Positions 155-62,989 of a stretch of 64,000 bases of DNA are shown here, one piece after another. The stretch is from a virus. Lineage: Duplodnaviria; Caudoviricetes. Each line of letters begins with the position of its first letter. The first letter of the stretch is position 1. The stretch lies in IMG/VR virus record IMGVR_UViG_3300030101_003968, positions 731-64,730 of that record, one strand, 5' to 3'. Made by a program: the position numbers and the translations under genes. The notes below the pieces were generated by a model, which did no database searches, had not been told where the DNA came from, and saw only the letters and a list, made by a program, of their open reading frames with translations.

Positions 155-177
155 TTGTTGAAGTTTGATGGGTTAAT

Positions 178-348: not shown

Positions 349-746
349 TTGAGTTTGATTTCGCAGTTGTTCTTGAAGTCCCAAATGGCTTCCTCTTCGC
401 GCTTCTTGCCTAAGGCGATAGCCTCTTCGCGGTCAAACACGATGTCGGAGACCTCGATGAAGGCGTAGTTGTCGTCGTTCACCCATGCACCGATTACCTG
501 CGTATAGGGATGTGGTTGAATTTGAAGCTGACGCTTCATGAACTCAATCAAGAGTTCCATCGTGTAGCTGAAGGCGTTGTAAGACAACAAGTTGTTGTCC
601 ACACATTCGACGGAATCCGCCGCTCCGCCCACTGCATACGCTTCCCGTGTGGGGCTGTAGCCGTTGAGGTCTTTGTCAACGGAGAATCCGTTGCCGCTCT
701 GCACGTTCAGGTAGCGCAGGAGCATAAGGTTGTCAATCATTTTCAT
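345..746 (-). CDS. hypothetical early phage protein (IGAW...IEVS...EAIALG...AIWD family)
   Basis: ORF track 345..782; likely start MKMIDN at 746, coupled to upstream stop. Confidence 0.7.
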   Translation of the reverse strand: MKMIDNLMLLRYLNVQSGNGFSVDKDLNGYSPTREAYAVGGAADSVECVDNNLLSYNAFSYTMELLIEFMKRQLQIQPHPYTQVIGAWVNDDNYAFIEVSDIVFDREEAIALGKKREEEAIWDFKNNCEIKLK

Positions 747-916
747 TGCTTGATGTTTTTGAGCAAGGCATCGAAGATGCAATCTTGCAGGTCAAACGTG
801 TCTGGTGTGTACTCACCGCGAACCTCTGCAACGCTGTCGCTCAGCAGGTCAGGTGCGTAGTCGAGCAAATCCTCAGTGATGAGGATAGCCAAATCTCGGA
901 TGTCGTCTTTTGTCAT
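743..916 (-). CDS. small acidic early protein (MTKDDIRDLA...), directly downstream of the hammerhead cut
   Basis: ORF track 743..973; upstream extension runs through the ribozyme, so ATG at 916 is preferred. Confidence 0.65.
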   Translation of the reverse strand: MTKDDIRDLAILITEDLLDYAPDLLSDSVAEVRGEYTPDTFDLQDCIFDALLKNIKQ

Positions 917-937
917 CGTAGATGGTTTTTGAAGTTT

Positions 938-994
938 GATACTGACACCCCAAGGGGTGTTTCGCCTATACAAGGCTCATCAGAGTACCTGTAC
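938..994 (-). ncRNA. type I hammerhead ribozyme
   Basis: - strand reads GUACA GGUACU CUGAUGA GCCU-UGUAU-AGGC GAA ACACCCC-UU-GGGGUGU C AGUAUC: complete catalytic core, stems I/II/III, GUC cleavage triplet, possible pseudoknot GUACA:UGUAU. Confidence 0.9.
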
Positions 995-999
995 TGCTT

Positions 1000-1140
1000 T
1001 CAGCAGTCGATGAGGTCAGCCAAGGTCATCTGCTCGTCGCAGGTCAGCTCGTCCCACTCAGCCGTAGAGGTGAGGAGGTCGAAGTCGAACGAAGAGGTCA
1101 GGAGGTCAGCAATAAGCTGACGGCGTAAGTGCTTATCCAT
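1000..1140 (-). CDS. small acidic early protein (46 aa, MDKHLRRQLIADLLTSSFDFDLL...)
   Basis: Read manually; preceded by hairpin repeat and TCAAACTTCAA motif; stop lies 5 nt upstream of the ribozyme. Confidence 0.6.
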   Translation of the reverse strand: MDKHLRRQLIADLLTSSFDFDLLTSTAEWDELTCDEQMTLADLIDC

Positions 1141-1176
1141 AGGATTGGGGTTTGAAGTTTGACATTTTGAGTGGTT

Positions 1177-1232
1177 GTCTCTCTAACTACACACTCTTCA
1201 TAAATGAAGAGAGTGTGTAGTAAGAGATACTA
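1177..1232. repeat. 56-nt hairpin repeat, copy A (long bulged inverted repeat)
   Basis: gtctctctaactacacactcttcat-aa-atgaagagagtgtgtagtaagagatacta; 54/56 identical to 62660-62715. Confidence 0.9.
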
Positions 1233-1237
1233 ACCGA

Positions 1238-1738: not shown

Positions 1739-1794
1739 GAGATAATGTATTAAATGAAACTCATAGAGTTTCGTTTCATTTAATACATATCTCA
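1738..1794. repeat. long inverted repeat abutting the start codon of 1238..1738
   Basis: atgtattaaatgaaac (1745-1760) / gtttcatttaatacat (1773-1788) perfect 16 bp, plus tgagat/atctca. Confidence 0.85.
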
Positions 1795-2145
1795 GTGGTT
1801 CGGCATCGGTACTCTAACGAGTTAGAGTAAAGGTCGCGGTACCAACGGTCAACTAGTTGACTCCTAGGGTACTGCGTGAAGGGACTGCCAACTCAAATCA
1901 GGTCAAGGTCAAGACCTTGAAAGAGTAGTCAGTGAAGCCCCAGTAGTGGGGTTATGTTTGTAACTCACTGAGTTACAAGGGGGATTGTCCTCTCCTTCGG
2001 AGCAACACGCCTGCAAAGTTAGTCAACCAAGGGTTGAACTAACCAGTCCTAACTGACTGAAAGTCAGGCAAAAAGCTGAAAGTTGTAGCAAAAACTGCAC
2101 TTTAGTGCAGGGGGTGGGGTCTGCAAACCCGTTTCGGGTTTGGTC
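1795..2145. other. hairpin-dense intergenic region between the divergent early and late blocks (structured leader, terminus or origin)
   Basis: About 10 short-loop inverted repeats, e.g. tactctaac/gttagagta, gtcaactagttgac, tcaaggtc/gaccttga, ttgtaactc/gagttacaa, ctgact/agtcag, caaacccg/cgggtttg. Confidence 0.6.
2014..2021 (-). promoter_or_regulatory. Bacteroidota-type -7 box TAACTTTG facing the early genes
   Basis: Matches TAnnTTTG on - strand; no clear -33 box. Confidence 0.45.
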
Positions 2146-2404
2146 TGCGCGTGTCTGTGTATGTATATAATCCCCACGGTGTACATATCTCACCCCTTTT
2201 TTCGACGGATCTCGATTCAGTCCCTAATTTGCCTTGAAACAGGTCAAATAATCTAACTTACTCATAATCAATACCGTAAGCGACGTTACATGAACAGTCA
2301 CTTGACGGTTGACTTTTCAAAAATTGTTTTATAACTTCGCGATGTTATTGTGATCAAGACAAAAATGGCCTCATTACTGTTGAAACATAGAAAAAAAGAA
2401 TCGG

Positions 2405-2412
2405 TATCTTTG
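2405..2412 (+). promoter_or_regulatory. Bacteroidota -7 box TATCTTTG
   Basis: Upstream of the first + strand gene. Confidence 0.6.
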
Positions 2413-2438
2413 TTTTAGACACAACAATAGCTGTATCT

Positions 2439-4118
2439 ATGCCTATACGAGTAATAAAATCACCAAATAGAGGATCTGAAGCGGTCCAACGGATGCTAGA
2501 TAGTGGGAACTTTAAGCTTGGTCCCAACGGAGAGCTTCTTAGGGTGAGTGCAGAGGAGGCAAATCAGGCAGCATTGCAGCAATCGAGAGAGGCAGCCTAC
2601 CCCGAGAAGTATTCCCCAACTACATCTGGGTTCATGACTCCCGAAAGAAAGGAGTATTTAGAGAATGTAGATAGGCGGCTCACACCAGAAGAGGCAAGAG
2701 AGTATGCAACGGTGTCTTTTGACCCATCTGAAGGACCAAACATGGTGTTCGGTGCGGTGGCGGGTGAAGCACCTATGGAGCCCGTGGCCCTTCTTGCTGG
2801 CCAAGCAATAAAAAGAGCAGGTGATGCTTACAGGGTTTTGAAGACTCCAGTAGAAAATATGGGGGTCGGTCTGGCATCTGCAGAGCCAAGCAGAGTTGGC
2901 ACACTTAAAAAGTCGGGATATAAGGGGCCTAAAATCAACACGGGCTTTATTCCTTCCAGGAAGCCTCCTGAAGATATTTTTTCTCCAGCTGTTGTTAGCA
3001 AGCACACTCCTCGGGAGGGGCTTGTGGTAGATGAAGTCGCAAGTGAGGGAAACGAGTTCGTAAGAAGATACTTTGCTGACCCTCAGGTTCAAGATCACTA
3101 CAGAAAAACTCTCATTGGGTCTAACCCTACTGCTTCTCAAATGCAAGACGCAATAAACTTGGACTATGAGGATGCCGCTATGATATCCAAAAAGCAGCTT
3201 TTTGACCTTGATTACGATGTAGAAGAATCAAACAAAATATATCGCAACGCACTTCATCCAGACTTCAATGAGGAAAGGTATGCTCAAACCCTTATTGAAG
3301 ACAATGATGCAACCAAGCTTGAGGCCCTTTTTCTGAGGGGACAAAGAGCTCCAGACACAACCCTTGATTTTGATGGCTCCCTTGTTGGTGACGCTGCTGC
3401 TGGAATGTATAGACCGCTTCAAGAAAGCGTTGCAATAAACCCTAAGTTTAGGGGAGATAAATCCACTGCTGCGCATGAAGCTCAGCATTTTGTTGACGCA
3501 AACTTCTTAAGGTCAGATTCTGACATTGCAAAAAAGGTTTCGTCAGGTATATCTGAAAGCGTTAATCCTAAGCTTCAGCAATATGTAAAAGACGGGTCTG
3601 GACGAGATGCGCTAAGCAGGTCCGAACTTTATCTTGCAAGCACCCCAGAGATTACAGCTCGAACACGCGAGCTGCAAAGATCGGTAGCAGAAATTCTTCT
3701 TAATAACCCGTCCAACAATCCAAACATAAAAGCCCTAAGTCAAGAGGATAGGGTTGCTTTTCTTTTAGGTGATTTTTCAAAGCTAGACGAGTCATCCATA
3801 ATGAATGTGTTCAGACAGGCTTTTCAGGACAACTTATCGAAAGGAAAGATTGGAATTGTAAACATGTTTAATGATGTCTTGAAGGGCGGTAAGGCTGTTG
3901 ATTTTTCTTACTCTGGCAACAGACCCATCAGCCAAATGAATATCAACAATGAGAAAAAAGAAGCTATTTCTAACTTGTTTAAGTATTCTCTTGCGGCATC
4001 AGGCGCAGGGGTAGCTTATGGCGCTATGGACCCTGATCAACAACCGCCTCAAGGAATGTCTTTCGGGGGAAAGATGAGGGTCAACAAGACTCAACCAATG
4101 AAAGTAATGAAGCGATGA
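2439..4118 (+). CDS. putative virion/internal protein with zincin-like HExxH motif
   Basis: 559 aa; AAHEAQHFVD followed by YLASTPEITAR; C-terminal MSFGGKM motif. Confidence 0.6.
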   Translation: MPIRVIKSPNRGSEAVQRMLDSGNFKLGPNGELLRVSAEEANQAALQQSREAAYPEKYSPTTSGFMTPERKEYLENVDRRLTPEEAREYATVSFDPSEGPNMVFGAVAGEAPMEPVALLAGQAIKRAGDAYRVLKTPVENMGVGLASAEPSRVGTLKKSGYKGPKINTGFIPSRKPPEDIFSPAVVSKHTPREGLVVDEVASEGNEFVRRYFADPQVQDHYRKTLIGSNPTASQMQDAINLDYEDAAMISKKQLFDLDYDVEESNKIYRNALHPDFNEERYAQTLIEDNDATKLEALFLRGQRAPDTTLDFDGSLVGDAAAGMYRPLQESVAINPKFRGDKSTAAHEAQHFVDANFLRSDSDIAKKVSSGISESVNPKLQQYVKDGSGRDALSRSELYLASTPEITARTRELQRSVAEILLNNPSNNPNIKALSQEDRVAFLLGDFSKLDESSIMNVFRQAFQDNLSKGKIGIVNMFNDVLKGGKAVDFSYSGNRPISQMNINNEKKEAISNLFKYSLAASGAGVAYGAMDPDQQPPQGMSFGGKMRVNKTQPMKVMKR

Positions 4119-29200: not shown

Positions 29201-29310
29201 CATCATTTAGAGACTCAAGTGAAGTTGGATCGCTAACTTCACGCCCTAAAAAGATTGTAAAAAAGTCTGCTAGTTCAAACAAGACGAAAAAAAGAGGCTA
29301 TGGCAAGTAA
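26221..29310 (+). CDS. tail protein: muzzle/stabilisation-type N-terminus fused to long acidic Ig-like region
   Basis: LNKE......D.LDAVNI...VKKIPG...LG.CVD...NRVFYF then about 900 aa acidic beta-rich sequence. Confidence 0.55.
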   Translation: MITNLRPRILNKESSPSVIKGTDMLDAVNIVADGLETSEQNTVKKIPGTIDVFFNDSDDAFLNTVLGVSVNKTAVVLGHCVDKERNRVFYFTSEYTAGSDTQSNGKIYMMEQFAPDEIKIVILGLISDILPEDFVAANIIRVPVLEEEYNLDENFGGVQEDQDTIIEFDDSVDVTDIQGEITVISTPNFPNLVVNPLEEAPSTTGFLTIQNTGGAIAYQTLFEFGEGINAEDPQDHSRIEMSIGQEALSELAPGDTFNLPITITTEGGVEAGTYEFFVTVISQNYTQVIPVQFALNIEVKTLVDPKFSISIQTSGPSSADYTYGENVTPSISLGPIEENSGIDSEATITFVREVTPDDEVSLPLGISFEIDTAQEALELSIGESDIAGSEVIMGGFEATLTDENTVAQFKIKLRDNNGPFENVVYDRTIQFSTSANLIAYPGFNSDGFSYEDIDVQIAVSVLEEVIVLPADIGTTGFNNQQFGLLPHLTNEENESELGVDAETLDGSSVTVTVGTIYNNGDEDGHFFLNLRGSTQGYGLEQLASLNKVGLRYKIGNVNSGDWKQMFSMTSIFNAVSGLDDGFPPGSDISLFSETLAGGNSQQLHIRIENIDDTCRAGVLDTIGETYEGDVILFENSWIGALGVLEMLRVEVHQIPSPDTNLTDVGSETYNNSGSTNPSVKGFMDIETIISTAEPIIGPTIVESRGRQTTAQLDSTGGGPLGGGLTTYYPKQFASIFTDPNQQLLDSIQANDGSVYSGSTDDGDGVGFAVANTSVAASGAADPTITISVSVTFQEPNFLGPFGSGFENHDPNPFQGTFGAVGSLGPVLVYTEPYLIGSQELTDFDSKDLSSYPFSAYNSSLAYGNNGDGHAEFGSCRQFFTTIPSSSVVFFAVKPEFSSYITFLQTPSSEYSYAFEDDHYGSFCGVNVNVNGNSTTLGNNTNRVVFPLTNEQWDWVHSQPDFGGAPPTPSRFDVDPTPSPLPFNDESIQQVVARPSFRDSSEVGSLTSRPKKIVKKSASSNKTKKRGYGK

Positions 29311-32300
29311 TACAGATAGAGCCAAGTTTGTAAACACGAACCCAAAAGAAAACACAATACTTGCGTTTACAAACGGAAGGGGAGAGCCTCGTGCCATAAA
29401 TGTAGAAAGGTGCATAGATGAGCTCGGTCAAATCCCGTCCCTTAACGCGATATCTCTTGACGAAACGGATCAAAACGATTTTAAATTTGCTTGCCCAAGA
29501 GTTCACTTGTTGCCAATTTCTTTTGAGTTTGATTTTGATCCAGATAAATCTTCTGGGAACTTTGAAAACACAGATGGATTTCAGTTTTCTTATCAAGTTG
29601 TTTACAAAAACGGATCTACGAGTGCCATTGCCCCGTACTCCGACGTTGCATATCCGCCAGCAATAATTAACCTTGGTCTCAAGACTTTGGCTGAGACTGA
29701 GGTAGAAAACAGGTGTGTGCTATTTATTCCCAAGCTGTCTGCAGAGGCCAAACTTATAAGGCTCATATCCAGAGAGGGGAATAACGACAATCCTAGGGTT
29801 ATAGATCAATTTAGAGTAGACGTACAGTCTAATGACTTCATAATTACCGATGACGATTTTCTTGGTCAGTACAGCTTTTACAATGACAAAATCGGTGCGC
29901 TTCTCTCTGAGATTGACGCTACAAAAACGTTTGATAACGTTCCTAGAAACGCTAAGGCTCAAACCGTCGCGGACAACAGGGTTATGTATGGAAACTATAC
30001 CGAGGGATACGCCAACATAACCACTGACGTAAACTTAAGTGTAGAATTTAAACAAGCACCGCCTCCTGGGTTTTCATTTGAGCTAAAGGCAGTTCCTTAC
30101 GTATTCAGAAAAAAAACAGATAAGGCTTCTGGAGAAGCTGGTTCGGCAGATCTTGGAAGACAGAGATTTAAAACAAACTCTGGTTTTGTACTGGATACAA
30201 GTGGGTTTCCCGAAAGCGTACCCGTGGGAGTTTACACAGTTTCTATAACTATTGCCCCTAAAAACAATTATCACATTTTTCTTGGAACGGGTGAATCCCC
30301 TAACTCTAGAGAAAATCCGATTGTTGGAGCTGGTCCTACCGCCTTAAGTGATTTTATTTTTAATCAATCTACAAGTGCTCTGGCGGGTTCGTCTGCTGCT
30401 CCCTCTAAGGTGATTAGAGGTAGAGAAATGGGTGCGGCATCTCAGTCCGACACAGCTGGACTTCCTGTTGACGGAGCTCTAAGAGCATCCTATTTTAACG
30501 GAGGTTACAACACAGCCTCAAGCGTGACTTGGGATTCAAGCAATGGAGACCTGCACCTTACGGATATAGGAAGGTCGTTTAGCTCTCCGCTCGTATTTAA
30601 GGGTGAACCAGTTACTTTTTCTACAACAATTCAAGTAAACTCATCCACTGAAAGGGATGTTTTTTCTAAGGCTCTCATTCATGGGCTTTGCGGATTGCAC
30701 CCTAACTCAAGCCCTATAGATGTATTCGGTTCTCAAGTAGCTCCCACATCTAGTCCTGCAAATTACTTTAAGGAGGTTGCCTATGATTTGGGCCTTAATG
30801 ATGACTCAACTTTTTCAGCAGAGGGAAGCTTCTTATCTGACCTTGTTTGTTCCGTTTCAAGCGGATATAACAACTCAGACGTATCTGGCGACATGTGCTC
30901 AAGAGAGCCAGATGGGTTTTTTGTAATCAATAAGGCCACGATGAGGTTTTGTGGTGAGCCAGCAAGGGGTTATGCTGGACAGATAGATGATCTTCTCTAT
31001 GAATATGATCAAGACAAAAGCGGATATGGAATGTTTATGTCTTTTGCTCATGCGAAGGATGTAAATGTAAAAACTGTTGTGCCTCTTCCAGAGGGTAAGT
31101 TTGGGTCAGCATCTAGTCCAGGTGCAGCTGCTCAGTCTTTCGAACTGTTTACTAACAATATAAATGGATCTAATGACGATGTAGTAAGAGCAAGAAGATT
31201 TTTTGCTATGGGAACTGGGGACTGGGACTACAGGGTTGATTCTAACGGAAACAATCAAATAATGTGGCCGTCTTGCTATAGGCAGTGGCAAACCCCAGAC
31301 GGCGCCCTAAATGGACCGTCTAGGATTCAAAACACAAACCCAGAAGATCTGCAAACCTATTTAGAGTCAGCTACAATAGATCAAGGGACTGTTGCTCTTT
31401 CTTCAAGTCAACCCGATCCAATGCCCGCTCCTGTATTACCAACAAGGCAATACGATGACGGTAAGATTTTTGAATCAAATGATTCCTTTAGAAATACGTT
31501 GTATCATCCAGCGCCTATAAAAAAATGGATTATTGCTGGCGACGAAAACAGCGAAGTATTACCTAGTGACAAATCAGACTCATACTGGAACACTATACAC
31601 GGTGGCGCGGGCTTTACAGTTAACATCGACGTGCCAAACGACTCGTTTGACAATGCCTTTCAAGATGCGGGTCAATTCTTCGTCGCGGGAAATCCATCAA
31701 CAATGCTGGGAGACATAAGTAAGCATTACTGTGGGTACCTTAAAAACTACAATAATGCTGGTTATTTTCAGTTCGGCAGAGATATTGAGTACACCGCCCC
31801 CCCTGACACCGTAAACGTTTCTAATTACTTAGATAGGGGAACTCTTTCGTTGGTTGATGGAGAGATGGGGCCTGGAGGTATGAACGGGTTAGCTGCATCT
31901 CAGTTTGGAAACAGATCTGATAACTCTTCATTTGGGCTTCCTTTTGTCATGGGAACCCACGACATTAACGGTGATACATCATCAAACGTGATGGGGTCCA
32001 TGGCAAACATACGTGGAACTGTTACAAATTTTGGGCTTTTAGGATATGTAGATAATTGCCCAGGATACCTTGTATCTGAAATTGTAGCTAGAACTCCAGA
32101 AACAGTAAACTCCAATTATAATGGAGCTTTTGTTTTAGGAAACAGCAGTGGAAGTTCTCAACTTGCTCAAAGCTTTGCTGTTGTAGTACCACAATATGCA
32201 GACGTTGGTTTTGCCTTAAATGATGTATTGCTGGGTGAGGCTCAGCCGCTTGGTGTTGTCTTTAGGTCTCCGCTGACAAGTGGATACTTTTCATCTTTTT

Positions 32301-35300
32301 ACTCCGACCCAGGGGCGCTTGTAAGTTGTATTGACACTAGAGATACTGCTGATATGGCGGGCACCATAGCTCAGGGTAATTACTTGAGCACAATTCAACC
32401 CGTTCAGACAAGGCAGCCTCCAGCGGGTTCAACTGGATCAGCAATAGTGGTTTCTGGGGCATCTATAAACACCTCTTCAGAAGAGCTTGGATACAACTCG
32501 TTTAAGACAAAAGCAAATCACGAATTTGGTATAGTTTACTATGACGAAAGGGGGAGACATGGGGCTGTTCAGCCCGTAGGCTCTGTATATGTGCCTGGAT
32601 ATGATACAGAAGACCGAGGCAGTTCCTTAAAGGGAGCAGCAAAAGTCAAAATGGAAATCAATCACGCTCCTCCCTCTTGGGCGACAGAATATAGGGTGGT
32701 TTACTCTGGAAACACTTCGGTTAGTGAATTTATTCAACATACCGTCGCTGACGCTTTTGTATCCTCAAAAGCTCCAGGCAGAATATACGTTTCTCTAAAT
32801 CACCTTCAGTCTAACAAGATTTCATACGCCGAGTCATACGGAGCAGTCAGCCTAGATGATGGCACCAAGTCGCTATACCGATTCAATCAGGGTGACAGAC
32901 TTAGGATTATAAACTATTCCAATGTGTCTGCGGAGCTAGAATATGCTCCAAAAGATTACGACTTTAGAATTGTTGATTTAGAGATAGTTGGTCCAGACAT
33001 GGACAATCACCCTTTTCCAAACGAGTCTGATCAGGCAAGATTTAATGGTGAGTTTTTGGTCTTGGAGGACAACAAAGAGGCTAGTGGGTTTAGGGTTGAA
33101 GACATTTTGGCTGACACCTCTGGTAACGTAACTAGTTTTTGGGGAAACAGATGCCTTGTAGAGATATACAGACCATCCAAGGGGCTTGGAGATGAGTCTA
33201 GGCCTTATTTCGAGCTTAATTATGGAGGAAAAATTTTAAGCGGTCCCACACATCAGTTCAACACTATCTTGATGACTAAGGGTGATGTTTTTTACAGAAG
33301 CGTACCCATGAACGCTCAAACTATAACTTCTGACGCATCTACAGAGCAGACTATTGGCGAGTACACTAGTCTTATTCAAGGAAGCACAGACAATGAAACA
33401 TCCGTGCCCAATCCTGTTTCGTATTACGTTGAGTCTGAAACAGTTACAGATTTATATAAGTCTGATGCAAAGAATTATGGGAGAGTGCATTTTGTAGACC
33501 GATTTGCCGATGAGGTAGAAAGGCCTTCTAGCATATCGTTTTCTGAAAAAACATTTCAGGGCTCTTACGATCTTAGATATTTCTCTTTTCCAAAAATAGG
33601 AAACTTCAAAGACCTTCCTAGGTACAGTGGAGGCATTGATGTGATGGACTTTCAGGGAACTAACATAATGAGTTTTAATGACTCAAAAGTATACTACATT
33701 CCAGTCTCTAGAGACGTCCTCACAACAGGCAATACGGATGCGATTGTCGCAAGTACAAAGGTGCTTGGGTCTGAAATAGCAATACCGATTGACGGGGGCT
33801 CATCAAAAAGACCTGAGTCGGTTATCTCTATTAACAACGACTTTTTCTTTTTTGATGAAAGGAATGAAAGAATAGTCATGATTAAAGGGGGTAGAACTCC
33901 AGTAATTGTTACAGACGCAAATGTTGATGCTTACTTCAAGTCTGAAGTTCAAAAATGGAAGCAAAGTGGTGCGTTCAAAGCACCCTCTGGGTACGACCCG
34001 ATGAGGTCAGAGTACTTAATATCTCTCTCTTCGCTGGAAGATGGCTACATATATCACGATCACGTCTCAGCAAGAGATCGAATGCTTACAATGGGGTTTG
34101 ACTTAAAGACGAATAAGTTCTGGAAGTCAAGGTATTCTTTTGCGCCTCACTTTTACTCTACCCTTAACGGAAAGCTAATTTCTTATCACTCAGAAAAAAC
34201 TCTAACTCACCCAAACACTGTTGGAGATGAAATAGAGTCTCCATTTGTTCTTCCGCAGATTCACAATGACACTTCAAAGAGGAATAAGATCTACGGAAAA
34301 AAAGTTAGATCCAGCCTATGTGTTTCTGCTAATGCCAACAACTCAAAAACAAAGGAATTTAACGTTGTTGTTTTGGATTCTGACAACAGGTGGGAGGCTA
34401 ACCTGTACACACCCACTGGGGCCTCTGCAATACCGTTTGGCAGGTTTAAGGGTTACAACGATAAGTACTACGGAAAAATTGTTGGAGACACCACCGTTGC
34501 GGCAGAACAAAGAAAGTCCCAGATAACAAAGAGAACAATTCAGACTATGCCCTATGCTTTTGACGAAAGGCTTATTCCGTCTACGGGGCAACTTCTTCAG
34601 TCTCAATTTTTGGGTCCAAGAGGGTTTACTTTTGTTGACGAAAATGGAGAGATTTATGGAGTTAATTCAACTGGAATTAAGTACATGGAGTTCCAAGTTG
34701 TTATGTCTAAGTCAAGCTCTGCGTTTACGGCTCCACTGGCCATTGGGAAAAACTCTATTCTTTATGAATCTTCACCTGGAGGATCTCAAATGGTTCCTTT
34801 GGGATCAGGACCTAAAAACACTCACTCTTTTAATAGAAAGGCGTTTATAGCTGCAGACACTGAAGACACGAACAGAACAAGAAAACTCGTAATAAGGGCT
34901 CCTTGGAATCAAGTTGAAAACTACTGCTTGCAAAACGGTCACGAAGACGTAATTGAAAGAGTTACTACTGATGAGTTTACTTCAAATCCGAGCGTAGTCT
35001 TCGGGTTCTTTACTTCTGTCAATAATGACGAAACAGGTTACAAGATATTTGATATAATTTTTGCCCCGTACTACTCCATGTTTTTTGGAAAATCTGTGCA
35101 ACAAGATGGGTCACTAAACAACCTGATAAGCCTTTTTGACGGTGAAGGCATTTTCAGTGGAGGCGATCAAGCTGAATATGTGTGGGACTTGAACGAAGAC
35201 GGCCTCGTTAATGTGAGCGACCTCTTGATATTCTTGACAGGGTTTGGAGAACCATTTGGAACAGAAGATTTGTTGGGCTTACTTGCGGAATTTGGTTCAG

Positions 35301-35566
35301 GCGTGGAAGATGAAAGCACAGTTGATTTTGATACTATAGGCTCTTTTACTGCCGCACAATTTTTAAATCTTTATAATGGTGAGCGAAAAGAAATTCACTC
35401 TGTGTATAGCAATCAGCTAAACGCTCCTGAGCTTACGGGCAGATACATGAAAATAGACCTTGTTTCAGACGACGCACAAGATGATGCTCAGTTGTATGAG
35501 ATTATGGTTGATCACGACAACAGAGTAAAGTCTCTTTCAAGAGGAACTAAATCGAAAAAGAAGTAA
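29300..35566 (+). CDS. large tail muzzle/stabilisation protein (P22 gp10 / crAss muzzle-like)
   Basis: 2088 aa; LAFTNG..EPR.IN, FQFSY..VY.NG, NR.MYGNY.EG, FGIVYYDERGR, GYDP...EY, W.SRYSF.P. Confidence 0.7.
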   Translation: MASNTDRAKFVNTNPKENTILAFTNGRGEPRAINVERCIDELGQIPSLNAISLDETDQNDFKFACPRVHLLPISFEFDFDPDKSSGNFENTDGFQFSYQVVYKNGSTSAIAPYSDVAYPPAIINLGLKTLAETEVENRCVLFIPKLSAEAKLIRLISREGNNDNPRVIDQFRVDVQSNDFIITDDDFLGQYSFYNDKIGALLSEIDATKTFDNVPRNAKAQTVADNRVMYGNYTEGYANITTDVNLSVEFKQAPPPGFSFELKAVPYVFRKKTDKASGEAGSADLGRQRFKTNSGFVLDTSGFPESVPVGVYTVSITIAPKNNYHIFLGTGESPNSRENPIVGAGPTALSDFIFNQSTSALAGSSAAPSKVIRGREMGAASQSDTAGLPVDGALRASYFNGGYNTASSVTWDSSNGDLHLTDIGRSFSSPLVFKGEPVTFSTTIQVNSSTERDVFSKALIHGLCGLHPNSSPIDVFGSQVAPTSSPANYFKEVAYDLGLNDDSTFSAEGSFLSDLVCSVSSGYNNSDVSGDMCSREPDGFFVINKATMRFCGEPARGYAGQIDDLLYEYDQDKSGYGMFMSFAHAKDVNVKTVVPLPEGKFGSASSPGAAAQSFELFTNNINGSNDDVVRARRFFAMGTGDWDYRVDSNGNNQIMWPSCYRQWQTPDGALNGPSRIQNTNPEDLQTYLESATIDQGTVALSSSQPDPMPAPVLPTRQYDDGKIFESNDSFRNTLYHPAPIKKWIIAGDENSEVLPSDKSDSYWNTIHGGAGFTVNIDVPNDSFDNAFQDAGQFFVAGNPSTMLGDISKHYCGYLKNYNNAGYFQFGRDIEYTAPPDTVNVSNYLDRGTLSLVDGEMGPGGMNGLAASQFGNRSDNSSFGLPFVMGTHDINGDTSSNVMGSMANIRGTVTNFGLLGYVDNCPGYLVSEIVARTPETVNSNYNGAFVLGNSSGSSQLAQSFAVVVPQYADVGFALNDVLLGEAQPLGVVFRSPLTSGYFSSFYSDPGALVSCIDTRDTADMAGTIAQGNYLSTIQPVQTRQPPAGSTGSAIVVSGASINTSSEELGYNSFKTKANHEFGIVYYDERGRHGAVQPVGSVYVPGYDTEDRGSSLKGAAKVKMEINHAPPSWATEYRVVYSGNTSVSEFIQHTVADAFVSSKAPGRIYVSLNHLQSNKISYAESYGAVSLDDGTKSLYRFNQGDRLRIINYSNVSAELEYAPKDYDFRIVDLEIVGPDMDNHPFPNESDQARFNGEFLVLEDNKEASGFRVEDILADTSGNVTSFWGNRCLVEIYRPSKGLGDESRPYFELNYGGKILSGPTHQFNTILMTKGDVFYRSVPMNAQTITSDASTEQTIGEYTSLIQGSTDNETSVPNPVSYYVESETVTDLYKSDAKNYGRVHFVDRFADEVERPSSISFSEKTFQGSYDLRYFSFPKIGNFKDLPRYSGGIDVMDFQGTNIMSFNDSKVYYIPVSRDVLTTGNTDAIVASTKVLGSEIAIPIDGGSSKRPESVISINNDFFFFDERNERIVMIKGGRTPVIVTDANVDAYFKSEVQKWKQSGAFKAPSGYDPMRSEYLISLSSLEDGYIYHDHVSARDRMLTMGFDLKTNKFWKSRYSFAPHFYSTLNGKLISYHSEKTLTHPNTVGDEIESPFVLPQIHNDTSKRNKIYGKKVRSSLCVSANANNSKTKEFNVVVLDSDNRWEANLYTPTGASAIPFGRFKGYNDKYYGKIVGDTTVAAEQRKSQITKRTIQTMPYAFDERLIPSTGQLLQSQFLGPRGFTFVDENGEIYGVNSTGIKYMEFQVVMSKSSSAFTAPLAIGKNSILYESSPGGSQMVPLGSGPKNTHSFNRKAFIAADTEDTNRTRKLVIRAPWNQVENYCLQNGHEDVIERVTTDEFTSNPSVVFGFFTSVNNDETGYKIFDIIFAPYYSMFFGKSVQQDGSLNNLISLFDGEGIFSGGDQAEYVWDLNEDGLVNVSDLLIFLTGFGEPFGTEDLLGLLAEFGSGVEDESTVDFDTIGSFTAAQFLNLYNGERKEIHSVYSNQLNAPELTGRYMKIDLVSDDAQDDAQLYEIMVDHDNRVKSLSRGTKSKKK

Positions 35567-38883: not shown

Positions 38884-41800
38884 ATGCCACTACGTTCAGG
38901 ATTTAGCTCGCCTCAGTCTGAGGTACAATCAATAATTGAAGACTACAGAAATCAGGGACTGCCAGACGAACAGCTTGAAAAAAGACTTTCGGAGGAGTTT
39001 GCCCCTGAGATGTGGGAACCGATTCTTCACCCCAAAGAAGAACCGAAGGATGACCTTGAGTCAAGACTCGTGTCTCAAATAGGGGAGAAGCCTGAACAGC
39101 CGTCGTTTCCTCAGGATATATACGACGAGTTTCAATATGACTTTAGGAACCCGCTGATTAAGCCATTGCCTCCGAAAGGAGGCTTTGTCACGACTGACGG
39201 TACGTACAACAAAAGTCTTGAGGCATATAACTCTCAGGCTGAAAAAAGAAACTTTAGAGCTAAGAAGCAGTCCGCTGTGTTTGAGCTCTACAACAATCAG
39301 GTAGATGAGTACAACTACAATGCTCAGGCCTGGAATGACGCAGCAGAGGATATTCTTGAGGACGAAAACAGGGAGTTTTACGAGTCCACAATCAAAATAG
39401 ACAAGTCTCTTGCTGCAATCACGCAGCTTCCAGAGAGGGTAAACCCCTACAGCTGGAAGTCAGCACTGGGGGAACAGCGCAATACAGGAAAGTTTTCTCC
39501 GCTGGACTTTGGCACACATATCTTCGCACAAAAGACTGATACTGACATTCATAACGAAATGCTCAGGGACGAAGGCTATTTAAGCGCCATGAAGAATCCC
39601 ATGGACGAAAGCTTCAACCTCGGATCGTCTGACTATCCTGTTCTTGTAAGCGGATCACCTGACGACGTTATGTCTCAGGTCAAGATGATTTACGACGAAC
39701 GAAACGACAAAAACTTTGCAAGTGACCCCGCTTTTGTGGCTGCCCTTAAAGAGAAGATGAAAAGAAAGGATTCGTACCGATCCGCATACATGAAAGAGTG
39801 GTTTTCTAAGTACGCTAAGGAGAACGTCTTTGACCTAAAGAATATGACCCCAGAGGAGATGGCTCAGGCAGAGCAAGACATCTTTGACGACACTGGGCTT
39901 TACATCAATCTTGACGGCAACAACACTGTTGGAGCCGCAAAGGAAGGCGACTTCTGGACCAACATGAGCGCGGCCACAATGAGGTTGAGAGCTACTGGCA
40001 ACAACGTCATGTTTGTGGCCAATGCCATGGGTAAGGCTCTTGACTTTGTGATGAGTGAAGACACCAAGAGTTACGAGCGCTATGACATTAGATTAGATGA
40101 GCTTAGGGATAGAAAAAATGAGCTCGAAAGGGCTGCCGAGGAGATAAGTCAGGGCATGACCAGATACTACATGACTCGCACCGAGGCTATGTTGGCTGGA
40201 GACGACTTGTCTTTGGACATAGACGATGTGGAGCAGGCAAGCATAATTACTGTCCTTAAGGGCTTTGTTGGTCTTGAAGATTCTTTCTCTAAAATGGAGA
40301 GGTTGGAGGCCCTTCAAAGCCTCCCTCAGTCTCAAACTGGGAACCTTATCGGTATGTTATTTGCTCTTGCAACCAGAGGTAAGGGCTCCAAGGCGGCTAA
40401 GGGAGTTACAGGACTTTTTAACTTTTTTGCAAAAACGTCACTGGGCGCCTCGGTGCCCATGGCAACCATGGTGGGTGCAGACAAGTTTGCAGAGATTTAC
40501 GACGATCCTTTCTTTTCAACCTTTACCGACTCCGAAGGACTTGAGGTGTCACCTATTGCTGCCCAGAGAATGCTTGAAGAGGCACAGTTATTTGGAAACT
40601 CAAACGCCACCTTTGAAAGCCTTGGGCTGACAAGAAATAGAAACGACGCTGCCATCCTTGGCTACACCACCGTTCACGCTGGAGGTGAAGCTGCAGGAGA
40701 GCTTGCTGGTGGTCTTTTATTCAAGGGATTTGGCAAGTACGCTACTGGCACACCCCTTGACAGAGCAGCAAAGAAAAGAATCGGTCAATACCTTGTGGGG
40801 ATGTTCTCCGCTGTGGGCATTAGCATGCCTGAAGAGTACCTCGAAGAAGCCATAACTGAGGCTATTCAGTACTCTGCAGAGCTTGGATTTGAGGACAGAG
40901 AGTTCAACATGGATGAGTTTGTTTCTCGGGTTCGCAAGGCTGGTCTGAGCGGGTTTACTATGGCTCCATTGATGGGGACAGCGACATCTGTTGTTGGGAC
41001 CGCAATGCAGGAGCGTCAGATACAGCAAATGAGTCCAGAGGAGTTCAACCTGTATCAGCTTCGATTTGCGTACAACAGTGAGTACGACAGGCTTGACAAG
41101 ACCGCTAGGGACATCATTGAGATGGAGCAGACTAGGGACGCATCTAACGACCCCTCGTTTGTTCAGCACATGAACGAGGAGATTGCTCAAAAAAGAAAAA
41201 CGCTCAAAAAGAATCAAAAGGCAAGGATGGATAAGGCCTTTGCTTTGCTCGAAAAGGATGCTCCTCTTGCAAACAAAATCATGCTGTCTGGTCAAAAGAT
41301 TTCTGGCCTTGCCAGCATGGTCAAGGAAGAAACCAATGAAGATATAAAGAAGATATACGAAGAGGAGCTAGAAAAGGCCATCGGAGAAAGAGCTCAGCTT
41401 GACGACGCAGTAGCCGAGGCTCTTAGGGAGCAGCGCACTATTGTTGTAAAAGACAGAGATGGAAACGACGTAAAAACATCGTTTACCGAGCGATCAGCCA
41501 CTACGGAGGAGAAGAGGGAGATGGAGGGTCTGAGCTCAGCCCAAAGGCCAAACGCAGAGGACGCTGCAGCACAAGACGAGCTCGACGAAGAGTTTGACCT
41601 TGATTACGATGCTGGTATGGAGGACGATCAAATCGTCATGCTTTCTGGCATGGACGGGGTCACCATGGAGCAGGGTAGCATTGACGAGTCCAAGATGCAG
41701 AAGGGGGTCATGGACTTCCTGAGAATGGTAGCCCCAGACCTAGCAAGCGAAGATCTCACTATCATCACTTACGGAAGTCAAAAGGCATACGAGGCTGATC

Positions 41801-44800
41801 CAGACATTGCTAGAGCAATGAGCAGGGACGGAGCGTCTCCACGCGCATACGCCGCAAGAAACGAAGAGGGCAAGATTACTAGAATTATAGTTGACCCAAG
41901 ATCTACAATCGGAGACGCCCAACACGAGGTGGGACACGTCGTCCTGAGAACCGTTTATGACAACCCTGTTCAAAGAACTGCTCTTGTTGAGAAGATTCTT
42001 GACATGGCCAACATAAAGGGCAACGAAACATTCAGGGCTTGGGTCAACTCCACCATTGACCTTTACAACTCGAACAGAGAACAGCTGGGCAAGGATGATG
42101 TGGCTCAGGAGGAGCTTATCCAAAACTTCTTCCAAGCATACGTATCTGGAGAGTGGAATGTATTCAATGACGCTGGGAAGCAAATAGAAGTTAAAAAGAA
42201 GGTTAGAGATAGAATCGCCGAAGGCTTTTGGGACTTCTTGGCTATTCGCAACCCATCTGTCAGGAGCCTTAACATCAAGGACACCGACGGACTTATTGCT
42301 GTTGCGAAGAAGTTTCAGCGTTTTGTTTCTGATCAGCCAAACTTTTCTCCGACTACAGAAAAAGTCGCAAGCCCAATGGAGCGGATGGGCAAGATGGTTG
42401 CGGCCCCAGAGCAGGAGCGCCCTGAGCCAAAGAAAGAAAAGCTTGACCCCGCCTCTCTTTTCAAAGAAAAACCAGCAGAACCTGCTGAAGAAGCACCAGC
42501 ATCCGAAGAGGCTAAGCCACAGGATGACCTTACTGAAACAGCAGTACCGACTCCAGTCATGGGACCGCGTCAGGACACTGAGTCTGAGGCTGATTACAGG
42601 GCAAGGTTGCAGAGGGAGGCAGATGAGATGCTAAAGGGCACGGAGGGCATCGAAACATCTGCAGAGGACGCGCTGTCTCAAGAGACAGAGGGCCTCAGAT
42701 CAAAGCAAAGAGGCAAAGACTTTGTAGCAGGAAAAACCATTAAGGCGGTTTACCTTAGAAACTACGACGCAAGAGTCTTTGAGCTGAAGGCAAAGGATTA
42801 CGGTCACTACAGAAACTGGGTCGCAAAAATTACTGGAAACGGATCGCAGCCATTTGATCGCATTTCATATCAGAAAGAAGACGGTTCTTTTGCTGATCTT
42901 CGCGCACCAAAGCCTGTTTACAACAGGGATGGAACCCTTAGGCAGATGAGACCAGTGGACATCAGAACCTTTAAAATGAGGTTTATAGAGTCTCGCAATG
43001 CTATTCTGCAAGCAAGAACCGATGCTAAGGTGTCCAACACGAAAAGACTCACAAGACTTAGAGATCTCGCAAGAGAAAATAACATCAATCTTGACGAGTA
43101 CTTTGATTACAACTACGGCAACTACACGCTGTCTAACCTTGAGTACGCCGAGGTGCAGATTCTTTCAAGGATTTCAGAAGAGCCAGGAACCACACACGAC
43201 ATTGGGATTATTGGCCCCAATCTCGATGCCACTGGAAGAATAAGCTCCAGAGACCCACTTCCAAAAGACCTTGAGATTTACAACAAGGGAAGGGAGCTTG
43301 GATACAGATCCAAGAGAAGGAAGGTAGAGGGAGTTGGTACGCACACTACCTCCTTTAGCGAAAGAAGCGCTATAGAGCAGGGTGTTTTAACCAGAGTTAA
43401 AAACATTGATGAGTTTAGAAGTGAGCTAACAAGGCTTACTGGCGACGGAAGCATTTTTGCGATGATCGCAAAGTACGCCCCTACGTCATACGGCACAGCC
43501 ACGTTTGAGGTTGGAGGAAAAAAGGTTAAGGTCCCTGTAAAGAGCGGTGTTTACACTCCTGTTGTAGACTACTTCGATTTTATGAAAAAGAACGGCAGAG
43601 CACCATCTCCTTCTGAGATTAGCGCAATCACCAATACCAACAGCGGAAAGCAGTCGGAAGTGTTTGACGCCATCAAGGAGAGGGCTATGAGGTTTGCCGA
43701 CAACGACAAGCAATCAGTCATCTTCATCAAAAACCTTGGCGCAGAAAATCCCGCAGGAGATCCAGGAATCTTTGAGGCAGCATTTAAGATTATTGATGCA
43801 GCCATAGAGAGCTCGTCTAACCCAGGCGTAGCCGTGGAAATGGTTGTTGATTCCATCAACAAAATCATGGCGAAGACTTACAAGTCAAAGCTAAGCATCG
43901 GTGGCGGTGAAAAAATTGCCATAGACAAGGAAAACGGCAGAACACTGTTCCAAAGACTTTCAGATAAAGAGATCAAGGGTAGCGGTCTTTACGATCAGGA
44001 CGGATCCCTCAGGCTCAACAGAGCGGAGCCTGAACTTGCGTACAAAAACTTTAAGAAGTTTTTCGTTGATCAAAAGTCAAACAAGATTGGCTTTGAAATA
44101 AGAAAGCCGCTTCTTCTTAAGCTGCTGAATAGCAAGCACTTAGGAAGCACAGAAAGCAAGGAGTACTTGACCCTTCCTTCGTCCAAAGAATTTTTGGATC
44201 TCGTTAGCTCAGAAGAGCACCTCAACACAAGCTCTGCTACGGGCGATATCATTGGCGCAGTAATTGTTGACAATGCTGCCGCAAAGCTCAAGACTGAGGA
44301 CCCGTCTACGGGTAAACCCTACCTATATGGTGTAACTGGATTTAAGGGGCTTGTCATGTTTGATGAGTTTGCTACAGAAGCAAAGGTTCAGGAGATGATG
44401 ATTGCCAGAAACCCAGAAAGATACACTGGTGGTATTGGCGCTCAGGCTTCAGGGCTCGCGGGGCTTATGTCCAAGCGCAGGGCTGGACGCATCTACCACC
44501 ATGGCGCAGGTCAGTGGGAAAAGTCCACCAGCAACATGTTTGGAAACGCCCTTTCTGCTATTGCACTGAAGTTTCAGGACAAGTACTTTGATGTCATCAT
44601 GCTTCAGAGCGATGTAGAAAACTACAAGAAGCAAAGAGTAGAGGCTGGGCAAGACTTTGACCTTGCGCTCGACCTCATGTACGGAAAGACAAGAGATAAC
44701 CTTGAGTCCCTTGAAACTACCTTGGACATGATTAAGGATCTGATGGCTCAGTCTGAGATTACATCAGATCAACTTTCGGACTACCTCTACGCTAAGCATG

Positions 44801-62620: not shown

Positions 62621-62659
62621 GATGGATTGAATTGAAGTTTGAAATTTGAAGTCGTATAA

Positions 62660-62715
62660 GTCTCTCTAACTATACACTCTTCATAAATGAAGAGAGTGTA
62701 TAGTAAGAGATACTA
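62660..62715. repeat. 56-nt hairpin repeat, copy B
   Basis: Identical to 1177-1232 except one compensatory pair. Confidence 0.9.
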
Positions 62716-62717
62716 GA

Positions 62718-62776
62718 TGGAGATGTTGAAGGAATCGAACCTTCGAGGATAACCTCCCTAATCCATAGGAACACCT
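62718..62776 (-). ncRNA. 59-nt miniature tRNA-like cloverleaf ending in CCA
   Basis: AGGUGUU CCUA-UGGAU-UAGG GAGG-UUAU-CCUC GAAGG-UUCGAUU-CCUUC AACAUCU CCA. Confidence 0.7.
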
Positions 62777-62817
62777 TGCGGGCTATGCCCCTCGTGAGTA
62801 GCTTTCTCACGACACAG

Positions 62818-62902
62818 AAGGGAGGAGGGGAATCGAACGCCTCGTGTACCCATCCGTTGTGCTTTGCCCGAAGTGCTTTGCCGTTGGATTGTACGCTCCC
62901 TT
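62818..62902 (-). ncRNA. 85-nt tRNA-like element (acceptor stem + T-arm, long central arm)
   Basis: AAGGGAG/CUCCCUU acceptor; GAGGCG-UUCGAUU-CCCCUC T-arm; central GUAC/AUCC stems with GGCAAAGCAC twice. Confidence 0.55.
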
Positions 62903-62911
62903 GAAAGAGTC

Positions 62912-62977: not shown

Positions 62978-62989
62978 TATGGTCAAACT

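What the first reader, a model, noticed from the sequence alone, without database searches (positions are those of the whole stretch)
938..994. Intact type I hammerhead ribozyme between two early phage genes
Seen: the - strand reads GGUACU-CUGAUGA-GCCU(UGUAU)AGGC-GAA-ACACCCC(UU)GGGGUGU-C-AGUAUC. Every core nucleotide matches the hammerhead consensus (CUGANGA, GAA, A15.1-U16.1, GUC triplet). The five nt just 5' of stem I (GUACA) can pair with loop II (UGUAU), the kind of pseudoknot known to accelerate natural hammerheads. Predicted cleavage is between + coordinates 944 and 943. The element starts 5 nt after the stop of a 46-aa ORF. Cutting would give the downstream mRNA a 5'-OH end reading AGUA-UCAAACUUCAA...AUG. 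Inference: it processes the early polycistron.
Basis: partly seen in the sequence, partly recalled or inferred. Interest (0 to 1): 0.85.

Follow-up and report, generated by a model that had tools for sequence, protein, structure and literature searches.

The report
Hammerhead ribozyme in phage early operon
A genuine self-cutting hammerhead RNA sits between two small genes of an uncultured marine phage; it belongs to a large phage family of such ribozymes that standard databases miss, but it is a known kind of element.

Summary
A complete type I hammerhead lies on the - strand at 938-989, and the predicted cut is between 944 and 943. It is not chance: 1 of 300 shuffled windows gave any hammerhead descriptor hit. 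I found 83 distinct relatives in phage contigs. They keep the core and show compensatory changes in all three stems.

Context supports cutting inside a multi-gene message:
- The upstream gene stops 10 nt before stem I. In 23 of 82 relatives the upstream gene ends at the UGA inside the ribozyme core.
- The cut site lies 24-28 nt before the next AUG in 63 of 83 copies (27 nt here).
- Relatives place a hammerhead before homologues of five of this operon's genes. Here, other junctions carry long hairpins before the same leader motif.

Rfam's hammerhead models do not reach threshold. Cleavage itself is untested.

Hammerheads that flank phage genes are already in print (Perreault 2011), so this is a new member of a known kind. 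The same scan made similar notes on other phage DNA and on this window.

The parts
938..989 (-). Complete type I hammerhead ribozyme (52 nt)
   Evidence: Sequence. My covariance model R1 scores it 85.2 bits, E 3.5e-21, and it is the only copy in the 64,730-nt genome. The hammerhead fold is the MFE of the 52-mer.
984..989 (-). Stem I, 5' strand (GGUACU)
   Evidence: Pairs with 938-943. Three of the six stem I pairs show compensatory changes in 63 relatives. The second-outermost pair is G-U in 76 of 83 copies, which only makes sense on this strand.
977..983 (-). Catalytic core C3-A9 (CUGAUGA)
   Evidence: In 83 relatives N7 is U 48, C 34, A 1. The other six core positions were fixed by the scan itself.
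964..976 (-). Stem II (GCCU/AGGC) with loop UGUAU
   Evidence: Paired in 99.6% of cells, and 3 of 4 pairs show compensatory changes. The stem is 4 bp in 77 of 83 copies. A 5-nt loop goes with it in 73 of 83.
961..963 (-). Core G12 A13 A14
   Evidence: Invariant in alignment A1, but partly fixed by the search pattern.
945..960 (-). Stem III hairpin (ACACCC-CUUG-GGGUGU) with A15.1-U16.1
   Evidence: Pairs 3 to 7, counted outward from the core, each show 4 or 5 pair types among 83 copies.
944..944 (-). C17. The predicted cut is 3' of it, between 944 and 943
   Evidence: Position follows from the hammerhead numbering convention. N17 is C in 79 and A in 4 of 83 relatives. Cleavage was not tested.
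938..943 (-). Stem I, 3' strand (AGUAUC). It becomes the 5' end of the downstream RNA after cleavage
917..943 (-). 27-nt leader left on the downstream message. It holds the motif UCAAACUUCAA (929-939)
   Evidence: The motif has 5 exact copies on the - strand of the window, each before a small ORF. Leader length is 24-28 nt in 63 of 83 relatives. The length also clusters in leaders that lack the motif.
743..916 (-). Downstream 57-aa ORF
   Evidence: A 68%-identical homologue in L081 is also directly preceded by a hammerhead.
1000..1140 (-). Upstream 46-aa ORF
   Evidence: Homologues lie upstream of the hammerhead in many relatives and directly downstream of a hammerhead in L046, L056 and L018.
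993..1007 (-). 6-bp hairpin (ACUGCU-GAA-AGCAGU) holding the stop codon of the 46-aa ORF. It is a neighbour, not part of the ribozyme
   Evidence: Predicted. Variants of it occur in relatives that have the same upstream gene. There is no general enrichment of upstream hairpins across the family.

Best explanation
This is a functional cis-acting type I hammerhead, transcribed as part of the - strand message that carries the small genes and the replication genes. As the RNA is made, the ribozyme folds and cuts itself after C17 (between 944 and 943). The upstream piece keeps the 46-aa gene with its stop codon. It ends in a 2',3'-cyclic phosphate just after two stable hairpins (stems II and III). 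The downstream piece starts with a 5'-hydroxyl and an unstructured, G-poor 27-nt leader before the AUG of the 57-aa gene. The likely host is a Bacteroidota bacterium that does not use Shine-Dalgarno sites. I infer that the purpose is to give an internal gene its own 5' end at a fixed distance from the start codon, and to uncouple the fates of the two RNA halves. Shown here: the motif, its conservation and covariation, its strand specificity, and its tight packing between genes. Inferred: transcription, cleavage, and the effect on translation or stability.
For: (1) The core and helices are canonical. (2) All 8 loci found through the neighbouring 133-aa protein alone carry a hammerhead core just upstream on the same strand. 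Seven are regular and one is aberrant. (3) Alignment of 63 copies: stems I, II and III are paired in 100%, 99.6% and 100% of cells, and 7 pairs in these stems have compensatory changes. The covariation score for the whole structure given, which also included the pseudoknot helix, is 0.40 against 0.13 in shuffles (0 of 500 reach it), and slid controls give 0.062 or less. The stem I figure is partly by construction: I kept only copies with 6 of 6 stem I pairs, which was 65 of 69. Stems II and III were not constrained. (4) N7 varies, as the hammerhead consensus allows, and the G-U pair in stem I is strand-specific. (5) In 23 of 82 relatives the upstream ORF ends at the core UGA. In 45 more it stops 0-14 nt before stem I. 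So the ribozyme lies on the same RNA as the upstream gene. (6) The leader is 24-28 nt in 63 of 83 copies, and it is also mostly 23-30 nt among the 39 leaders that lack the shared motif. (7) 76 downstream ORFs fall into 33 clusters, so this is a general junction element. (8) Homologues of five genes of this operon are preceded by a hammerhead in some relative. In the window, four other copies of the same leader follow long hairpins with z-scores of -5 to -7. (9) Host context: the nearest primase-helicase matches are phages of Flavobacteriia, and 2 of 44 start sites have a Shine-Dalgarno-like motif. (10) Published precedent: hammerheads flanking phage genes cleave in vitro and in vivo, and the halovirus HF1/HF2 hammerhead lies 13 nt before an early start codon with a mapped 5' end (passages of PMC3088659).
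Against: There is no experimental or read-level evidence of cleavage or of - strand transcription. The only RNA-library data are contigs of relatives that run across the cut site, which says nothing either way. No Rfam hammerhead model reaches its threshold. No tertiary contact between stem I and loop II could be identified, and fast natural hammerheads need one. The effect of a 5'-hydroxyl end could go the other way: after glmS ribozyme cleavage the mRNA is degraded by cellular RNases (review PMC6765202). The window has a single copy, so most junctions of this operon do without it.
Confidence: 0.7

Rival explanations
1. The ribozyme is real and cuts itself, but its role is to turn expression down or to insulate. 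Cleavage would expose the downstream message (5'-OH) or the upstream one to host RNases. That would set different levels for neighbouring genes rather than help translation.
For: For the glmS ribozyme, cleavage is followed by degradation by cellular RNases (review text PMC6765202). The same review says ribozyme processing could give transcripts of different stability or translation efficiency. The element is optional: 1, 1, 2, 4 and 2 copies in five complete relatives.
Against: The narrow 24-28 nt distance to the start codon (63 of 83 copies) and the unstructured G-poor leaders suggest the new 5' end is used for initiation. A simple decay signal would not need a fixed distance.
Confidence: 0.17
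2. The hammerhead with its leader is mainly a DNA-level module boundary. It would be a conserved stretch that promotes recombination and shuffling of small gene cassettes among related phages, with RNA cleavage secondary.
For: The same ribozyme and leader precede 33 unrelated gene clusters. In the window a 57-aa gene sits between the ribozyme and the 133-aa gene that follows it directly in most relatives.
Against: Compensatory changes that keep pairing, a strand-specific G-U pair and an invariant catalytic core are signs of selection on the RNA, not on DNA identity. Recombination may be a side effect.
Confidence: 0.06
3. One catalytic strand cuts several remote sites in trans. This 'one ribozyme, many targets' layout was proposed in this scan for other phages.
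For: Earlier notes on other DNA. The leader motif recurs before other early genes.
Against: Stem III is closed in cis. A search for the substrate 12-mer with up to 3 mismatches gave 52 matches against 44.2 expected (17 of 100 shuffles reach 52). The only match with fewer than 2 mismatches is the cis site itself. The other leader copies lack U16.1 and H17 in register.
Confidence: 0.03
4. This is a chance or decayed hammerhead look-alike with no activity.
For: No Rfam model reaches its threshold. Two related copies look aberrant in the 3' half (one in L006/L011, the same contig, and one in L029).
Against: 1 of 300 shuffles gave any descriptor hit. There are 83 distinct relatives with covariation. 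This copy matches every core position.
Confidence: 0.02

Closest known systems
Clustered hammerhead ribozymes flanking single genes or short gene blocks in prophages (Perreault et al. 2011, PMC3088659; passages read)
   Same: These are canonical hammerheads between co-directional phage genes, several per operon in some genomes. They were shown to cut about 2-kb native polycistronic RNAs in vitro, and the A. tumefaciens set also cuts in E. coli. Processing of polycistronic RNA is the proposed role.
   Different: This family was found only in viral contigs. None of 58 pattern matches in cellular genomes fitted my model. It is strictly type I with a 6-bp stem I, a 4-bp stem II and a 5-nt loop II. 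It has a fixed 24-28 nt distance to the next AUG and often uses the core UGA as the stop codon of the upstream gene. I could not check whether these sequences are in that paper's supplements, which are closed.
HHphage of haloarchaeal viruses HF1/HF2 (discussed in PMC3088659)
   Same: It lies in the early region, a short distance before a start codon (13 nt there), on a polycistronic transcript whose 5' end mapped within 3 nt of the cut site.
   Different: That one is a core variant in archaeal viruses and lies before the first ORF of its transcript. Here the core is canonical, the host is probably bacterial (Bacteroidota), and the ribozyme lies between ORFs.
Type I hammerheads in 5' UTRs of fungal and plant RNA viruses, whose self-cleavage is needed for translation initiation (PMC13725137; abstract read)
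   Same: A type I hammerhead lies just upstream of a coding region, and cleavage makes a new 5' end that is used for translation.
   Different: Those are eukaryotic hosts with cap-independent translation and RNA genomes. No such role has been shown for phage hammerheads.
Rfam RAGATH-1 hammerhead (RF03152), the best Rfam match
   Same: The alignment runs end to end and includes a small hairpin 5' of stem I.
   Different: It scores 21 bits against a gathering score of 56.3. Stem II here is a regular 4-bp helix. This is not a member by Rfam's criterion.
RNase III processing of phage T7 early mRNA at inter-gene hairpins (recalled from general knowledge, not from a call)
   Same: A long early transcript is cut between genes. 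In this window, long hairpins occupy the equivalent junctions before the same leader motif.
   Different: There a host enzyme cuts double-stranded RNA. Here the RNA cuts itself. Whether the hairpins here are RNase III sites is untested.

Membership tests
Hammerhead ribozyme class, type I topology | Core C3 U4 G5 A6 N7 G8 A9 and G12 A13 A14 | tested here: met
   CUGAUGA at 983-977 and GAA at 963-961.
Hammerhead ribozyme class, type I topology | A15.1-U16.1 pair and a non-G nucleotide at position 17 | tested here: met
   A960 pairs with U945, and C944 is position 17. In relatives the pair is A-U in 83 of 83, though the scan required it. N17 is C in 79 and A in 4.
Hammerhead ribozyme class, type I topology | Three helices around the core, supported by covariation | tested here: met
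   Stems are paired in 100%, 99.6% and 100% of cells, with 3, 3 and 1 compensatory pairs. Inner stem III pairs vary with 4-5 pair types. The stem I figure is partly by selection (65 of 69 kept).
Hammerhead ribozyme class, type I topology | Stem I open, stems II and III closed by loops | tested here: met
   and the MFE fold of the 52-mer.
Hammerhead ribozyme class, type I topology | Tertiary contact between stem I and loop II, needed for fast cleavage at physiological Mg2+ | tested here: inconclusive
Fixed lengths hint at some contact of unknown form: stem I is 6 bp in 77 of 83, stem II is 4 bp in 77 of 83, and an A lies 5' of stem I in 83 of 83.
Hammerhead ribozyme class, type I topology | Self-cleavage after position 17, giving 2',3'-cyclic phosphate and 5'-OH ends | not testable with these tools
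   Only contigs of RNA libraries were available. They cannot show ends.
Rfam RF00163 Hammerhead_1 | Score at or above the gathering score of 34 bits | tested here: not met
   No match at E up to 10 in the whole 64,730-nt genome.
Rfam RF03152 RAGATH-1 hammerhead and RF00008 Hammerhead_3 | Score at or above the gathering score (56.3 and 48.5 bits) | tested here: not met
   21.0 bits end to end for RF03152 and 17.4 bits partial for RF00008. None of the hammerheads in 14 related loci reached any Rfam hammerhead threshold either.
Gene-flanking hammerheads of phage and prophage operons (Perreault 2011) | Located between co-directional phage genes, often several close together | tested here: met
   It lies between the 46-aa and 57-aa ORFs. 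The window has a single copy. Five complete relatives have 1, 1, 2, 4 and 2 copies, within about 1.6 kb where there are several.

The most novel reading that the evidence does not exclude
In phages of Bacteroidota, whose ribosomes do not use Shine-Dalgarno pairing, the early multi-gene message may be 'punctuated' by interchangeable RNA-cutting devices. These would be hammerheads, long RNase III-type hairpins and tRNA-like folds. Each would be placed so that the next gene receives its own 5' end about 26 nt before the AUG. Creating that end would then be what licenses translation of internal genes. This would be a bacterial counterpart of mitochondrial tRNA punctuation and of the ribozyme-dependent translation recently shown in fungal RNA viruses.
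Probability: 0.3. Interest if true: 0.7.

Novelty: new member of a known kind. Interest (0 to 1): 0.42.

Why it matters
A 2019 review (PMC6765202) calls the biological role of hammerheads in bacteria and phages 'largely elusive'. This family gives a clean, testable case. It has at least 83 natural variants and a fixed distance to the start codon. Its upstream genes often end inside the ribozyme core. Relatives carry a ribozyme, a long hairpin or nothing before the same gene. Current Rfam thresholds also miss a widespread marine phage hammerhead family, so routine annotation of such phages leaves it unmarked. One example is GenBank AP013542.1.

Tried and rejected
Rfam at gathering thresholds over the whole window found only a tRNA. 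Permissive Rfam and RF00163 searches gave no convincing hit.

A DNA search of 50,697 phage records with the surrounding 1.2 kb found nothing. A search with the 91-nt element found one weak hit, which did hold a related, unannotated hammerhead.

PHROGs gave no function for the flanking small ORFs.

RNA evidence: two metatranscriptome runs held small shares of the region. Both are kept as contigs of 80-95% similar relatives. Some contigs run across the cut site, and their differences fall as compensatory pairs in stems I and II. Such contigs show neither transcription strand nor ends, and DNA may be present in those libraries. I draw no conclusion from them about cleavage, expression or habitat.

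An upstream hairpin as a general part of the ribozyme is also rejected: median MFE is -3.1 against -3.7 kcal/mol for control segments. A promoter reading of the GTAATNTCAA box upstream of many copies is rejected: it is the end of the upstream 46-aa gene family, including its stop codon.

Trans-cleavage targets showed no enrichment.

The genome-contig scan gave 58 pattern matches in diverse bacteria. None of the 58 fitted model R1 at E 0.001. By my own rough estimate this number of matches is about what chance gives for 18 fixed bases in 596 billion bases. It gave no host assignment.

RNAalifold on the MAFFT alignment recovered stems I and II but not stem III, because stem III lengths differ and MAFFT misaligns them. 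I counted stem III from the core outward in a script instead.

Rows dropped:
- Of 69 distinct pattern matches, 4 lacked a perfect 6-bp stem I and were left out of the alignment: L006 and L011 (same contig), L029, and L061 at a contig end.
- Two more (L030 and L039:1207-1300) were left out of alignment A1 because of long stem III inserts.
- In one search, four leader lengths of 1 nt are artefacts of an AUG inside stem I.

Supplements of PMC3088659 are closed, so I could not check whether members of this family are listed there.

Full report
What is there. The window is bases 731-64730 of a 64,730-nt viral contig that CheckV rates complete. On the - strand, one search shows these parts:

| Part | Sequence | Position |
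|---|---|---|
| Stem I, 5' strand | GGUACU | 989-984 |
| Core | CUGAUGA | 983-977 |
| Stem II with loop | GCCU-UGUAU-AGGC | 976-964 |
| Core | GAA | 963-961 |
| Stem III with loop | ACACCC-CUUG-GGGUGU | 960-945 |
| Position 17 | C | 944 |
| Stem I, 3' strand | AGUAUC | 943-938 |

This is a complete type I hammerhead with a canonical core, an A15.1-U16.1 pair and C17. By the numbering convention the cut falls between 944 and 943. The 46-aa ORF upstream stops at 1002-1000, which is 10 nt before stem I. The 57-aa ORF downstream starts at 916, which is 27 nt after the cut.

More than chance. My own descriptor scan found exactly one hit in the window on either strand. With looser limits (stems of at least 5, 3 and 3 bp), 1 of 300 dinucleotide-preserving shuffles had any hit. 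The 52-nt RNA has the hammerhead as its minimum-energy fold at -16.1 kcal/mol. The fold survives in 96-nt and 141-nt contexts. A 71-nt piece that truncates the neighbouring hairpin prefers another fold.

Relatives. I looked for relatives through a neighbouring protein, not through the RNA. The 133-aa ORF (345-746, - strand) found 8 viral contigs. All 8 carry a hammerhead core directly upstream on the same strand, and two contigs carry two copies. One of the eight, L006, has an aberrant 3' half.

A pattern fixing only CAGG, part of stem I and the two core boxes found 74 stretches in IMG/VR. A descriptor scan of all loci gave 83 distinct copies in 58 sources.

In an alignment of 63 copies:
- Stems I, II and III are paired in 100%, 99.6% and 100% of cells, with 3, 3 and 1 pairs changed on both sides.
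- The covariation score is 0.40 against 0.13 in shuffles (0 of 500 reach it). It is 0.062 or less when partners are slid. This score covers the whole structure I gave the tool, which included the pseudoknot helix.

I must say that stem I was partly selected. I kept 65 of 69 distinct copies that had a perfect 6-bp stem I, and I dropped two more with long stem III inserts before aligning. Stems II and III were free.

Counting stem III outward from the core shows 4 to 5 pair types at pairs 3-7. N7 is U 48, C 34, A 1, and N17 is C 79, A 4. The second-outermost stem I pair is G-U in 76 of 83. It would be a C-A mismatch on the other strand, so selection acts on the - strand RNA.

A covariance model built from the alignment scores the window copy at 85.2 bits, E 3.5e-21. 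It finds no second copy in the window or the whole genome. Five complete relatives have 1, 1, 2, 4 and 2 copies.

The pseudoknot. GUACA (994-990) can pair with loop II UGUAU in this copy. Across the family that helix is paired in only 58% of cells. The three outer pairs are unpaired in 29-45 of 63 sequences. Mutual information between loop II and the eight upstream positions is 0.29 bits or less. Copies with the same loop but a different upstream gene end lack the pairing. The GUACA comes with one variant of the upstream gene's 3' end, so it is lineage-linked, not selected with the loop.

Some other contact is likely, given the fixed geometry:
- stem I is 6 bp in 77 of 83 copies;
- stem II is 4 bp in 77 of 83;
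- an A lies 5' of stem I in 83 of 83, including the 15 copies not fixed by my pattern;
- an A lies 3' of stem I in 82 of 83.

I could not define this contact.

Context and likely role. The + strand carries packaging and structural genes: large terminase, portal and a virion protein. The - strand carries a primase-helicase, an exonuclease and many small ORFs. So 'early' is plausible but inferred.

Four observations tie the ribozyme to a multi-gene RNA.
1. In 23 of 82 relatives the upstream ORF runs through stem I and ends at the UGA of the core. In 45 more it stops 0-14 nt before stem I. Three stop further away, and 11 have no clear ORF.
2. The distance from the cut to the next AUG is 24-28 nt in 63 of 83 copies. 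It stays mostly at 23-30 nt among the 39 leaders that lack the shared ACUUCAA motif. These leaders are G-poor.
3. The 76 downstream ORFs form 33 clusters. In four relatives a tRNA-like gene follows instead.
4. Homologues of five genes of this window's operon (46, 57, 133, 55-68 and 40 aa) are directly preceded by a hammerhead in some relative.

In the window, the leader motif UCAAACUUCAA occurs exactly five times on the - strand. Four leader copies, one of them a one-mismatch variant, follow long hairpins with z-scores of -5.1 to -7.1. One follows the hammerhead.

The host is probably a Bacteroidota bacterium:
- the primase-helicase matches phages of Maribacter, Cellulophaga, Flavobacterium and Nonlabens;
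- 2 of 44 start sites have a Shine-Dalgarno-like motif;
- eight TATATTTG boxes lie on the + strand, several of them just before late-gene starts. The consensus TAnnTTTG is recalled, not taken from a call.

I therefore think the ribozyme cuts the nascent message. That leaves the upstream gene with its stop codon and a structured 3' end, and gives the downstream gene a 5'-OH end about 26 nt before its AUG. The direction of the effect on expression is not known.

Rivals. Four rival readings remain.
- A down-regulating or insulating role cannot be excluded (glmS precedent).
- A DNA-level role as a recombination module is compatible with the mosaic context. It does not explain the RNA covariation.
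- Trans-cleavage of other sites, proposed in this scan for other phages, finds no support here. The substrate 12-mer is not enriched (52 matches against 44.2 expected), and the only match with fewer than 2 mismatches is the cis site.
- A chance or dead motif is very unlikely.

Comparison with what is known. Hammerheads that flank single genes in prophage operons, and cut the native polycistronic RNA, were described in 2011. So was a halovirus hammerhead 13 nt before an early start codon with a mapped 5' end (passages of PMC3088659). A 2019 review states that processing of polycistronic transcripts has been suggested but that the roles are largely elusive (PMC6765202). A 2026 paper shows type I hammerheads in 5' UTRs of fungal RNA viruses whose cleavage is needed for translation (abstract of PMC13725137). 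My searches for a phage counterpart listed none, but they cover open-access text only.

By structure this is a hammerhead. By Rfam's thresholds it belongs to none of its hammerhead families: RF00163 gave no match, RF03152 gave 21 of 56.3 bits, and RF00008 gave 17.4 of 48.5 bits. None of the hammerheads in 14 related loci reached any of those thresholds either. A GenBank record of an uncultured Mediterranean phage holds an unannotated copy scoring 50.7 bits. None of 58 pattern matches in cellular genomes fits the model.

Verdict. The main reading is supported, the pseudoknot is not, and cleavage is untested. This is a new member of a known kind. It has three family-wide regularities that I did not see reported: the fixed leader length, the core UGA used as a stop codon, and the shared slot with hairpins and tRNA-like folds. 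They are not independent evidence. Interest is moderate.

Noticed in passing
window 1168-1235, 1742-1790, 62655-62715, 63590-63655 (- strand): Four long imperfect hairpins (about 20-27 bp, no U-tract, z-scores -5.1 to -7.1). Each lies just upstream of a copy of the leader motif UCAAACUUC(A/C)A and a small ORF. They may be RNase III-type processing sites in the same slot as the hammerhead.
   Followed up: partly
window 158-168, 929-939, 1152-1162, 62632-62642, 63573-63583 (- strand); 62983-62993 (+ strand): The 11-mer TCAAACTTCAA occurs exactly five times on the - strand before small ORFs and once inverted. A one-mismatch copy at 1725-1735 lies just after the ATG of the 166-aa ORF. The last two bases of the hammerhead's stem I 3' strand are the first two of this motif.
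   Followed up: partly
window 62725-62995 (- strand): A non-coding stretch of about 270 nt with two T-arm-like GGUUCGAUUCC boxes. It shares a segment (GAGGGGCAUAGCCCGCAAGGUG) with tRNA-like genes that follow hammerheads in L018, L028, L063 and L079, where Rfam tRNA scores 36-39 bits. Neither ARAGORN nor Rfam (E up to 1) calls anything tRNA-like here.
   Followed up: partly
related loci, e.g. L081 (HH at 634-713, upstream 57-aa homologue), L025, L071, L036: In 23 of 82 related copies the upstream ORF reads through stem I and ends at the UGA inside the conserved CUGA of the ribozyme core.
   Followed up: yes
window 4793, 9753, 13544, 18525, 23692, 24607, 38872, 52368 (+ strand): Eight exact TATATTTG boxes, all on the + strand, several just before late-gene starts. 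Only 2 of 44 start sites have a Shine-Dalgarno-like motif. Both point to a Bacteroidota host; the promoter consensus is recalled.
   Followed up: partly
window 993-1007 (- strand) and the same place in L002-L010, L016, L017, L022, L047 and others: A small hairpin encloses the stop codon of the 46-aa gene family. Its stem variants look compensatory (GAUAU/AUAUC, GAGAU/AUCUC, GACAU/AUGUC; ACUGC/GCAGU, ACAGC/GCUGU). It goes with that gene, not with hammerheads in general.
   Followed up: partly
L015:4197-4300: A regular hammerhead is followed at once by a second CUGAUGAG...CGAAAC core that uses the first one's stem I 3' strand region. This may be a tandem or nested copy.
   Followed up: no
L006:2660-2760 (= L011:10967-11071) and L029:9842-9919: Hammerhead 5' halves with aberrant 3' halves (R1 scores 33.7 and 40.2 bits). 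They may be decayed copies or copies with a large insert in stem III.
   Followed up: no
L085:1482-1572 (GenBank AP013542.1, about 30558-30648): An unannotated hammerhead of the same architecture (50.7 bits) lies between two hypothetical genes of an uncultured Mediterranean phage that is classified as Pelagivirus.
   Followed up: partly
window 38884-47289 and 29300-35566 (+ strand): Two giant ORFs of 2801 and 2088 aa. The first has an LPD38 domain near its C-terminus. The second has no Pfam match.
   Followed up: no
window 1740-2440: The divergent region between the - and + strand arms is packed with short palindromes. It holds the only TAnnTTTG box on the - strand near the operon start (2014-2021).
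   Followed up: no
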